From the NCBI GenBank assembly GCA_031378715.1, contig JANNEN010000183.1, positions 1 through 60,418 on the forward strand: a stretch of 60,418 nt of DNA. Reading direction: 5' to 3'. The notes under the pieces were generated by a model that worked only from the letters and a program-made list of their open reading frames with translations, did no database searches and was not told where the DNA came from. Each line of letters starts with the position of its first letter. Within the stretch, counting starts at the first letter, position 1. The translations under genes were made by a program, and so were the position numbers. Below, one piece after another: positions 16,643 through 17,917 of this stretch. The stretch comes from Emticicia sp. (lineage in GTDB: Bacteria > Bacteroidota > Bacteroidia > Cytophagales > Spirosomataceae).

Positions 16643-17917
16643 ATGAATGTCAAGTTATGCACACTGTCCACAGTGTTATCCACATTTTTATTGGTTGCTC
16701 ATGCCCAAGAAGAAAAGGTAAAATCTTTTGGCTATAATTACTACGGACAGAAAATAAACGAAAAAGCATTTTGCAGTCAATTTAGTTTTCGCTCAAAAGA
16801 AACTGCCGAAAAAGCGGTTGATGAAATCGTTCGACGTAGCGGTTTGAAAAGAAACTTTTACGTCATGGAATGTCCGAATACTGACAACTGTTTTGCGGCC
16901 ATTCAAGGACAAACCCGTTTGATTGTTTACGATGGTTCGTTTATGAAGAAAGCCAATGATTTATCAAAATCAGACTGGGGAGCTTTGAGTATTTTAGCCC
17001 ACGAAATCGGGCATCATCTTCAAGGGCATACCATCATAGAAGGTGGCAGCGACCCCGCCAAAGAATTAGAAGCTGATGAGTTTTCGGGTTTCGTGATGTA
17101 CCAAATGGGGGCTTCACTAAAAGATGCCCAAGCAGCAATTAGCAAATTAACCTCAGACTATGATGGCGGCACGCATCCACCAAGACAAAAACGTTTGGCA
17201 TCAATCAAAAAAGGATTCGACAACGCCCAAGAACTTTACCCAAATATTAAGAAAAACGATGGCAGCGTAATCACGCAATCAAGGTCACAAACTTCGCAAG
17301 TACCCTCACAACCAAATCAACCAAGAAATATTCCACAACCTATTCCCCAACAACCAAGAAATCAATCGCAAACCTCTGATAATCAACAAGATGTGGATAA
17401 AGTGGATAACTCTGTTGATAACTCCGAAAAACCCACAAAGCAACCAGATATTATTAATACAGCACCAAGAAATAATGAAAATACGAACGAAACTTCAAAA
17501 AAAGGGGCTTGTTTTGACGGAGATTGTAGTGATGGTTTTGGTAAAATGATTAACCCCAGAACTGATGAAAAGTACGAAGGCGAATGGAGAAACTCAAAAC
17601 GTGATGGCAGAGGAGTAGAGTTTTATGCCGATGGTGAAAAAAAATACGTTGGAAATTTCAAAAATGGAAAATATGAAGGAAATGGTTCATTTTTCTACAA
17701 AAATGGGGATAAATATGTGGGTAAGTACAAAAACGGCACAATGAATGACGACAAAGGATATTTTATTTTCAATAATAGTATCAGATTAGTAGCTCGTGTC
17801 GAAAATAACATCAAACACGGAAAAGCCATGCGAATTTATCCCGACGGTAGGAGAGAAGATACTTTTTTTATCAATGATGTTGAACGAAAAGGATATAAAC
17901 CTGAAATTAAAAAATAA
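16643..17917 (+). CDS. Secreted M48-like zinc metallopeptidase with P/Q linker and MORN repeats
   Basis: Signal peptide; [22 protein letters not shown]-terminal [17 protein letters not shown]-type repeats. Confidence 0.8.
16655..16684 (+). promoter_or_regulatory. Intragenic triple DnaA-box cluster 1
   Basis: TTATGCACA CTGTCCACA gtg TTATCCACA. Confidence 0.7.
17392..17421 (-). promoter_or_regulatory. Intragenic triple DnaA-box cluster 2
   Basis: Plus strand TGTGGATAA AGTGGATAA ctc TGTTGATAA. Confidence 0.75.

What the first reader, a model, noticed from the sequence alone, without database searches (positions are those of the whole stretch)
16655..17421. Two oppositely oriented triple DnaA-box clusters hidden inside a peptidase/MORN gene next to oriC
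Seen: TTATGCACA-CTGTCCACA-gtg-TTATCCACA (16655-16684, encoding signal-peptide residues [10 protein letters not shown]) and TGTGGATAA-AGTGGATAA-ctc-TGTTGATAA (17392-17421, encoding linker residues [10 protein letters not shown]). Both use the same 9-9-3-9 spacing on plus-strand coordinates, lie about 710 bp apart, and fall in the two least constrained parts of the protein. Cluster 2 is preceded by TGATAATCAA (17377), a decamer also present in the oriC candidate (14521). Known: non-origin DnaA-box clusters control initiation (E. coli datA and DARS, B. subtilis DBCs). Inference: a dual-coding cis element 2-3 kb from oriC that titrates or recycles DnaA, or is a second half of a bipartite origin. 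I know of no such element described in Bacteroidota.
Basis: partly seen in the sequence, partly recalled or inferred. Interest (0 to 1): 0.8.

Follow-up and report, generated by a model that had tools for sequence, protein, structure and literature searches.

The report
DnaA boxes written inside origin-side genes
Two tight triplets of the binding word for the replication initiator DnaA are written into the signal peptide and linker of a peptidase gene 2-2.8 kb from the likely replication origin of an Emticicia bacterium; silent codon positions are frozen in 23 species and one triplet has outlived the decay of the gene, so the DNA word itself is under selection, likely as an accessory DnaA-binding site that tunes replication initiation.

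Summary
Observation confirmed and much strengthened. The two triplets are the tightest two of 13 same-strand triple DnaA-box clusters in the 4.95-Mb genome. Both are kept in 23 full-length Emticicia orthologues (65-100% protein identity): 13 synonymous changes in box codons where 71 are expected, while amino-acid changes fall on the one degenerate box position. In relative G009 the gene has decayed to about 42% identity, yet cluster 2 is 29-30 of 30 identical. The neighbouring intergenic region is the likely oriC (strand-asymmetry minimum within about 3 kb in G015). Across 39 Spirosomataceae genera, perfect boxes pile up 0-3 kb on this one side of oriC (60 in 117 kb, 50 coding; 8 in 305 kb on the other side). 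Not supported: the shared decamer (341 copies genome-wide), DARS or datA membership, an essential second origin half (12 of 39 genera have no perfect box there). Best reading: an intragenic, origin-adjacent variant of Bacillus-type DnaA-box clusters that buffers DnaA; looping to oriC is the main rival. Binding and function are untested. This scan noted similar intragenic boxes in other genomes (Algoriphagus, Bacteroidales).

The parts
16655..16684 (+). Cluster 1: three head-to-tail DnaA boxes (starts 16655, 16664, 16676; 1, 2, 0 mismatches), encoding residues 5-14 of the predicted signal peptide
   Evidence: Same register in 23 of 23 orthologues; box 1 codons TTA and ACA invariant in 23 of 23; outer boxes (21 bp apart) best kept; the middle box decays to 3 mismatches in 3 of 23; lost in G009 and G023
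17392..17421 (-). Cluster 2: three head-to-tail DnaA boxes on the - strand (starts 17392, 17401, 17413 on +; 0, 1, 1 mismatches), encoding [10 protein letters not shown] in the variable linker
   Evidence: Register kept in 22 of 23 orthologues (one lost a 9-nt unit); retained at 29-30 of 30 nt in the decayed pseudogene of G009
17473..17481 (-). Site of a fourth box about 80-105 bp beyond the start of cluster 2; decayed in this genome
   Evidence: At most 1 mismatch in 7 of 12 aligned genus genomes; kept at 7-9 of 9 nt in the G009 pseudogene against five intact orthologues
16643..17917 (+). Host gene, 424 aa: predicted signal peptide, M48-like zinc peptidase domain (HEIGH motif), low-complexity linker, MORN repeats
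   Evidence: Pfam PF01435 E 2e-8 and PF02493 E 7e-12, both above cut-off; no NCBIfam family; signal peptide inferred from the sequence pattern, no predictor run
14219..14694 (.). Likely oriC: intergenic region between a Big_5/DUF2141 gene and the TPR gene, 8 boxes with at most 1 mismatch (1 perfect)
   Evidence: conserved in 13 aligned genus genomes; strand-asymmetry minimum within about 3 kb in G015; dnaA lies far away
14620..14690 (+). Right end of oriC: two overlapping tandem boxes (8-bp offset), a short GC-rich spacer, a TA-containing first trio and an AT-rich tract; likely unwinding end, facing the clusters
   Evidence: following 50 bp average 86% AT in 19 genomes, against 66% and 57% after clusters 1 and 2; a strict run of three trios is met in only 8 of 19
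14695..16497 (+). TPR-repeat gene separating oriC from the clusters; carries scattered boxes in this genus (15897, 1 mismatch) and perfect coding boxes in many other genera
19326..19564 (.). Further coding boxes in the radical SAM gene (19326 +, 19349 -, 19556 -), weak here and stronger in relatives
   Evidence: At most 1 mismatch in 6, 10 and 7 of 13 genus genomes; lowest-synonymous window of that gene

Best explanation
The two triplets are DnaA-box clusters kept by selection on the DNA inside a protein-coding gene beside the likely oriC, and they most likely act as accessory DnaA-binding sites that buffer the initiator and restrain untimely re-initiation. Shown: the boxes, their genome-wide rank, frozen synonymous sites, survival of cluster 2 after the gene decayed, position next to the strand-asymmetry switch, and a family-wide one-sided pile-up of perfect boxes within 3 kb of oriC. 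Inferred: each triplet has two strong boxes 21 bp apart (two helical turns) plus a weaker middle box, which would nucleate a short head-to-tail DnaA oligomer. Lying 2-2.8 kb from the unwinding end, the sites would be duplicated within seconds of initiation and would capture DnaA released from oriC, in a lineage where SeqA, YabA and Hda were not found. The protein accommodates the boxes where it can afford to: the LST frame in the signal peptide and the VD(N/K) frame in the linker. The element is probably a non-essential modulator.
For: Rank 1 and 2 of 13 triples in the genome. Box codons: 13 parsimony synonymous steps at 11 four/six-fold codons versus 71.5 expected (sd 7.6) from same-residue codons of the same gene, 0 of 200000 draws as low; only 1 of 132 background codons had zero steps, against 5 of 11 box codons. 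Amino-acid changes in cluster 1 boxes 1 and 3 (C/F; S/C/F/Y) fall almost all on box position 5, the N of TT(A/T)TNCACA (consensus as in PMC10380432). Signal peptides of the two neighbouring genes drift freely in the same genomes. G009: collinear pseudogene 142-150 of 351 nt identical outside the boxes (saturated silent sites in the TPR gene: 37-43%), but 29-30 of 30 in cluster 2. Family: 60 perfect boxes in 116.8 kb at 0 to +3 kb, 8 in 305 kb upstream, 7 in 151 kb at +5 to +12 kb. Where the peptide allows a box, the exact box is used in 50 of 87 cases in the zone versus 9 of 109 further away; 300 letter-shuffled decoys reach at most 7 against 60. The same word stands upstream of nrdA and a ParA-family gene in this genome. 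One PF00308 match only, no SeqA and no YabA in 5 of 5 genomes; no Hda above cut-off in G000. B. subtilis oriC-proximal clusters restrain initiation and were predicted to be common where SeqA and Hda are missing (PMC3245932, passages).
Against: No binding or phenotype data. In B. subtilis stable in vivo binding needed probably four or more clustered boxes and all eight sites were intergenic (PMC2533591); the strongest intragenic in vitro sites (rplB, codV) were not among those seen in vivo, and rplB showed no binding by ChIP-PCR (PMC4447404). Each cluster here has three boxes and lies in a gene that is presumably transcribed. Pure titration does not explain why the family-wide boxes are confined to about 3 kb and to one side of oriC; that pattern fits a contact mechanism better. 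Only two of six B. subtilis clusters affected initiation, and plasmid copies did not complement, so simple titration is doubtful even there. 12 of 39 genera have no perfect box in 0 to +5 kb, and 16 of 19 genomes of other families have none in 0 to +3 kb. Kin are not independent, so the family-wide p-values overstate. The strand switch was not seen in 9 samples of G021, and the window itself was uninformative.
Confidence: 0.47

Rival explanations
1. Extended origin. DnaA bound at the clusters contacts the oriC complex by looping across the TPR gene and helps or gates unwinding, as the second subregion of a bipartite origin does, but as a dispensable helper written into coding sequence.
For: Boxes are confined to 0-3 kb and to the side that the unwinding end faces, although the gene on the other side is more divergent and could host boxes as easily. 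The distance from the tandem boxes to cluster 1 is 2015-2024 bp in 17 genomes. The spacing grammar (12, 20-21 bp) is the same as in oriC. This genome's oriC has one perfect box, the gene two. In H. pylori, DnaA loops oriC1 to oriC2 across a gene (PMC3479198, passages); bipartite origins span up to about 2 kb (PMC4285127).
Against: Known second subregions are essential. Here G009 lacks cluster 1 and holds cluster 2 about 650-700 bp closer, G023 lacks both, and 12 of 39 genera have no perfect box in the zone. There is no trade-off between oriC strength and downstream boxes (rho 0.17, p 0.32, n 38). The fixed distance may only reflect the fixed length of the TPR gene. The spacer is not dnaA.
Confidence: 0.27
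2. Nucleotide-switch site. The clusters change DnaA's bound nucleotide (datA-like hydrolysis or DARS-like ADP release) with a bending protein.
For: Three-box cores as in DARS (PMC4585315); same-direction boxes near oriC would suit a hydrolysis site; no Hda was found, so another inactivation route may be needed; 1-3 HU/IHF-family genes are present. G009 has a perfect reverse box followed directly by a forward 1-mismatch box at +2115/+2125.
Against: The oppositely oriented adjacent pair essential for DARS (PMC10380432) is absent from both triplets. No exact IHF consensus lies between 200 bp upstream and 900 bp into the gene in 23 of 23 orthologues. The decamer candidate is not conserved.
Confidence: 0.1
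3. Transcription control. DnaA at +13 to +42 of the coding sequence (cluster 1) and in the linker acts as a roadblock or operator for the peptidase gene or for accD downstream, or damps transcription-driven supercoiling near oriC.
For: Cluster 1 sits just inside the start codon and was lost together with the gene in G009. DnaA boxes stand before nrdA and a ParA-family gene in this genome, and DnaA represses promoters elsewhere.
Against: Cluster 2 survived the death of the gene and lies about 370-600 bp from the accD promoter-like site. The family-wide boxes fall in different genes and gaps, and accD is not adjacent in most genera.
Confidence: 0.1
4. Protein-level or other non-DnaA constraint, such as a peptide motif, mRNA structure, or a different DNA-binding protein with a similar word.
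For: 5' ends of genes often have fewer synonymous changes (accD codons 2-20 average 2.0 steps versus 4.05). The VD(N/K) frame is a common peptide.
Against: Survival in a frameshifted pseudogene; amino-acid changes tolerated at the degenerate box position while silent sites are frozen; box-less homologues have ordinary, more hydrophobic signal peptides; this genus's DnaA ends in the conserved GGRDHSTV helix-turn-helix motif (its link to the standard box is recalled knowledge).
Confidence: 0.06

Closest known systems
oriC-proximal DnaA-box clusters (DBCs) of Bacillus subtilis (Ishikawa 2007 PMC2533591; Okumura 2012 PMC3245932; passages read)
   Same: Dense clusters of consensus boxes outside oriC but near it, in a lineage without SeqA and Hda; conserved in kin with turnover of location; individually dispensable.
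   Different: B. subtilis clusters are intergenic and have 4-9 boxes. Here: three boxes each, inside coding sequence, within 3 kb, on one side of oriC, in Bacteroidota. Binding and phenotype are untested.
mioC-promoter DnaA boxes of Escherichia coli (PMC5835720, passages)
   Same: Accessory boxes directly beside oriC that titrate DnaA (about eight monomers per copy in E. coli).
   Different: Those are promoter boxes that repress mioC; these are coding and 2-2.8 kb away.
Bipartite origins of Helicobacter pylori and B. subtilis (PMC3479198, PMC4285127, passages)
   Same: A second group of boxes about 2 kb from the unwinding subregion with one gene in between.
   Different: There the spacer is usually dnaA, the second subregion is intergenic, and it could not be deleted in H. 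pylori. Here the spacer is a TPR gene, dnaA is megabases away, and the clusters are lost in some relatives.
DARS1/DARS2 and datA of E. coli (PMC4585315, PMC10380432, passages)
   Same: Non-origin loci built on three essential boxes.
   Different: DARS needs an oppositely oriented (head-to-head) pair, datA an IHF site between boxes; neither was found. All are non-coding in E. coli.

Membership tests
B. subtilis-type non-origin DnaA-box cluster (DBC) | Closely spaced consensus DnaA boxes outside oriC | tested here: met
   top two triples of the genome
B. subtilis-type non-origin DnaA-box cluster (DBC) | Located near oriC | tested here: met
   2.0 and 2.75 kb from the tandem-box end of the candidate oriC; strand-asymmetry minimum within about 3 kb in G015; not seen in G021 samples
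B. subtilis-type non-origin DnaA-box cluster (DBC) | Probably four or more clustered boxes for stable binding (Ishikawa 2007) | tested here: inconclusive
   Three per cluster; a fourth box lies 80-105 bp beyond cluster 2 in many relatives; the rule is empirical for B. subtilis
B. subtilis-type non-origin DnaA-box cluster (DBC) | Bound by DnaA in vivo; deletion causes over-initiation | not testable with these tools
   Needs ChIP and recoding mutants
DARS (E. coli) | Core of three boxes with boxes I and II head-to-head | tested here: not met
   All boxes within each triplet share one orientation in 23 orthologues; requirement from PMC10380432
datA (E. coli) | IHF site placed between essential boxes | tested here: not met
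   No exact WATCAANNNNTTR from -200 to +900 of the gene in 23 of 23 orthologues; the E. coli consensus may not apply to the HU/IHF-family protein of this lineage
Bipartite origin (H. pylori, B. subtilis) | Second box cluster separated from the unwinding subregion by a gene, up to about 2 kb | tested here: met
   The TPR gene (1.8 kb) lies between; 2015-2024 bp to cluster 1 in 17 genomes
Bipartite origin (H. pylori, B. subtilis) | Second subregion indispensable | tested here: inconclusive
   Natural losses argue against: cluster 1 in G009, both in G023, no perfect box in the zone in 12 of 39 genera; other boxes could stand in; no deletion test
Bipartite origin (H. pylori, B. subtilis) | DnaA-mediated loop between the subregions | not testable with these tools
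   Needs electron microscopy or 3C
Replication origin proper (clusters themselves as oriC) | Boxes followed by an AT-rich unwinding element with conserved trios | tested here: not met
   50 bp after clusters 1 and 2 average 66% and 57% AT versus 86% after the oriC tandem boxes; a plain trio count did not discriminate, since hydrophobic codons give NTN runs after cluster 1 in one subclade

The most novel reading that the evidence does not exclude
Spirosomataceae origins extend into the neighbouring genes: a one-sided, 3-kb field of DnaA boxes written mostly in codons acts as a looping partner of oriC, and in Emticicia it has condensed into two opposed triplets that reshaped a signal peptide and a linker. 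This would be a bipartite-like origin whose second part is protein-coding sequence and is not tied to dnaA.
Probability: 0.27. Interest if true: 0.8.

Novelty: new variant of a known kind. Interest (0 to 1): 0.58.

Why it matters
How Bacteroidota time replication without SeqA, YabA or a detectable Hda is open, and my searches found no paper on accessory DnaA sites in this group. The finding supplies exact, recodable targets: most box positions can be changed without touching the protein, so binding, titration and looping can be separated in one strain. It also shows that origin annotation limited to intergenic DNA misses selected DnaA sites, that a DNA motif can dictate a signal-peptide sequence at an apparent cost in hydrophobicity, and it offers a rare natural control in which the gene decayed and the boxes stayed.

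Tried and rejected
Decamer link to oriC: rejected. Identical spacing as a duplicated module: rejected; the clusters are mirror images in box direction and the offsets are codon-constrained. DARS and datA anatomy: not found. Clusters as the origin itself: rejected on AT content; the simple trio count was uninformative, and it was met in only 8 of 19 candidate oriCs. A dif search with a recalled motif gave as many control hits as hits and was dropped. Strand asymmetry in G021 (9 samples) showed no switch at the locus, and the window's own profile was too noisy. Compensation between weak oriC and downstream boxes: none. Sigma-70 promoter and terminator scan: nothing tied to the clusters, and the model does not cover Bacteroidota promoters. 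The first signal-peptide comparison failed to find starts and was redone on 43 of 51 loci. Literature searches found no description of this element; the Cytophaga oriC-plasmid paper (Xu 2012) did not come up and was seen only as a citation in PMC3531139. No supplements were opened; those of PMC8287927 may list Bacteroidota origins. Look-ups of earlier findings by sequence, place and two word sets gave nothing.

Full report
Observation. Both triplets stand at the stated coordinates. A scan of the 4.95-Mb genome for three same-strand boxes, each within 2 mismatches of TTATCCACA and starting within 31 bp, gave 13 triples; cluster 2 (2 mismatches in total) and cluster 1 (3) rank first and second, ahead of the oriC candidate's own best triple (4). 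The genome has 51 perfect boxes (0.010 per kb), two of them in this gene. The host is a 424-residue protein with an M48-like peptidase domain and MORN repeats. The order is gidA, a Big_5/DUF2141 gene, a 476-bp gap, a TPR gene, the peptidase gene, accD and a radical SAM gene. Titles of the closest named records give the genus as Emticicia, family Spirosomataceae.

The decamer occurs 341 times in the genome, 6 times in the window against 4.2 expected, and precedes cluster 2 exactly in 7 of 23 orthologues. The shared spacing is true on + coordinates, but read along the boxes it is 9-12 in one cluster and 12-9 in the other. Boxes kept in one reading frame must be a multiple of 3 apart, and 12 and 20-21 bp are the commonest same-strand spacings in the family's oriCs (16 and 33 pairs) and in the 5 kb downstream (6 and 14 pairs). 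The outer boxes, 21 bp or two helical turns apart, are the better kept ones.

Selection acts on the DNA. The gene matched in 24 of 26 same-genus genomes: 22 are full length with both clusters, G004 is cut by a contig end and has cluster 2, G023 has neither. With the window that gives 23 sequences at 65-100% protein identity. Cluster 1 keeps its register in 23 of 23, cluster 2 in 22 of 23. In cluster 1 box 1 the codons TTA and ACA are invariant, while the middle residue changes (Cys in 15, Phe in 7, Leu in 1), mostly through box position 5, the degenerate N of the consensus; box 3 does the same with Ser, Cys, Phe and Tyr. On a tree built without these regions, 11 four- or six-fold box codons show 13 synonymous steps where same-residue codons of the gene predict 71.5 (sd 7.6; 0 of 200000 draws). 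As a control for gene starts, codons 2-20 of gidA, Big_5, TPR, accD and the radical SAM gene average 3.5, 3.0, 3.25, 2.0 and 2.6 steps in 11-12 genomes against 1.0 here, and the two neighbouring signal peptides drift even at the protein level. Box-bearing signal peptides are less hydrophobic than those of box-less homologues (best 10-residue mean 2.06, n 20, versus 2.66, n 23; 8 of 51 loci skipped; kin not independent).

A natural experiment. G009 (same genus, 99% complete) has no match to the gene. Its gap between the TPR gene and accD is a collinear, frameshifted remnant: against five intact orthologues it is identical at 142-150 of 351 positions outside the boxes, about the level of saturated silent sites in the TPR gene (37-43%), but at 29-30 of 30 in cluster 2 and 7-9 of 9 in a fourth box 103 bp on. 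Cluster 1 is gone there. Cluster 2 therefore needs no protein to be preserved.

The neighbour is the likely oriC. The gap at 14219-14694 is conserved in 13 aligned genus genomes and ends in two overlapping boxes, a short GC-rich spacer and an AT-rich tract, resembling the unwinding module of PMC8287927 (passages), although three strict trios are met in only 8 of 19 genomes. In G015, 20 samples of the chromosome switch strand asymmetry between 1.80 and 2.02 Mb, and a gene-by-gene profile over 260 kb has its minimum at 1,927,616, about 3 kb from the gap. Nine samples of G021 (91% complete) showed no such switch, and the window alone was uninformative. dnaA is far away, with at most one 1-mismatch box in each of five dnaA loci. 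The clusters themselves lack an AT-rich tract (66% and 57% versus 86%).

The triplets are part of a wider pattern. I took one genome from each of 39 genera of the family (two genera with the TPR gene at a contig edge and four without a match were left out). Perfect boxes number 60 in 116.8 kb at 0 to +3 kb from the TPR start (50 in coding sequence; three lie within 20 bp of the start and may belong to oriC), 8 in 305 kb at -10 to -1 kb, and 7 in 151 kb at +5 to +12 kb; 27 of 39 genera have at least one within +5 kb. Where the peptide permits a box, the exact box is used in 50 of 87 cases in the zone and 9 of 109 further off; without the one site shared by many genera it is 39 of 70; 300 shuffled words reach at most 7. 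The sister genus G085 has both clusters, and G093 has boxes in the same linker with another geometry. Against generality: the 23 named homologues from other genera that could be scored carry no perfect box in this gene, and of 19 genomes from other families 16 have none in the zone, while G053 has 23 in four intergenic arrays.

Mechanism. No SeqA, no YabA and a single DnaA-family ATPase were found in 5 of 5 genomes, and no Hda above cut-off in this one. In B. subtilis, six clusters outside oriC restrain initiation, single deletions are nearly silent, and the authors expected such clusters to be common where SeqA and Hda are absent (PMC3245932, passages; PMC13220808, passages). I therefore commit to an accessory buffer (0.47): two strong boxes on one helical face nucleate a short DnaA oligomer, are copied right after initiation and hold DnaA away from oriC. 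Every step after 'selected DnaA boxes near oriC' is inferred. Against it stand the four-box rule and intergenic location of B. subtilis sites (PMC2533591), the lack of in vivo binding at the intragenic rplB site (PMC4447404), and the tight one-sided distribution, which a looping helper of oriC explains better (0.27; PMC3479198 and PMC4285127). An essential second half is unlikely given the natural losses. DARS and datA anatomy was tested and not met (PMC4585315, PMC10380432). That the boxes are functional DnaA sites at all I put above 0.9.

Novelty. The kind is known: origin-proximal DnaA-box clusters, and the E. coli mioC boxes (PMC5835720). New are the coding location, the one-sided 3-kb field, the phylum and the pseudogene control. 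Nine searches of the held library found no description; subscription papers are mostly missing from it. All papers were read as search passages, not whole. This scan's own unchecked notes report intragenic boxes near oriC in other genomes, so the phenomenon is probably recurrent rather than unique. Verdict: real, well supported as a selected element, function untested; new variant of a known kind; interest 0.58.

Noticed in passing
G000:C73:29392-30019 (L216): Three perfect DnaA boxes upstream of the ribonucleotide reductase alpha gene nrdA (TIGR02506 above cut-off); candidate DnaA-regulated promoter. In G058 a large box array (about 18 boxes with at most 1 mismatch) also lies some 2 kb upstream of an nrdA-like gene (L121) and may be that genome's origin.
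   Followed up: partly
G000:C18:7076-7105 (L217): Two same-strand boxes 21 bp apart, about 75 bp upstream of a ParA-family ATPase gene (match to TIGR03453 below cut-off; 'parA' from the recalled N-terminal motif).
   Followed up: partly
L116:4998-5027 (G020:C25:17997-18026): A triplet with the same 0/9/21 geometry inside a GH106 alpha-L-rhamnosidase gene, encoding VDKSVDIVNN, with another perfect box about 440 bp away; distance to oriC unknown.
   Followed up: partly
L043 (G053:C2), +2242 to +2944 from the TPR start: Four intergenic arrays with 23 perfect boxes at about the same distance from the origin candidate as the Emticicia clusters, in another family.
   Followed up: no
window 14520-14530 and 14437-14446: Within oriC, a near-palindrome TTGATWATCA is kept in 12 of 13 aligned genus genomes and the word TTAACGTGGA in 13 of 13; possible sites for another origin-binding protein.
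   Followed up: no
window about 15328-15351 (TPR codons 212-219) and about 10833-10856 (gidA codons 54-61): Windows with unusually few synonymous changes that are not DnaA boxes; unexplained.
   Followed up: no
window 37244 (-) and 48683 (+): Two single perfect boxes in intergenic DNA: after a histidine kinase gene, and in the divergent promoter region before a phosphatidylserine decarboxylase-like gene.
   Followed up: no
L120 (G023:C19): The genus outlier without the two clusters has perfect boxes at the 3' end of the peptidase gene and in the radical SAM gene instead (+2985, +4418, +4625).
   Followed up: partly
table: In many genomes of the family the contig ends about 3.4-3.7 kb beyond the TPR gene's 3' end, suggesting a repeated element at that spot; not examined.
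   Followed up: no
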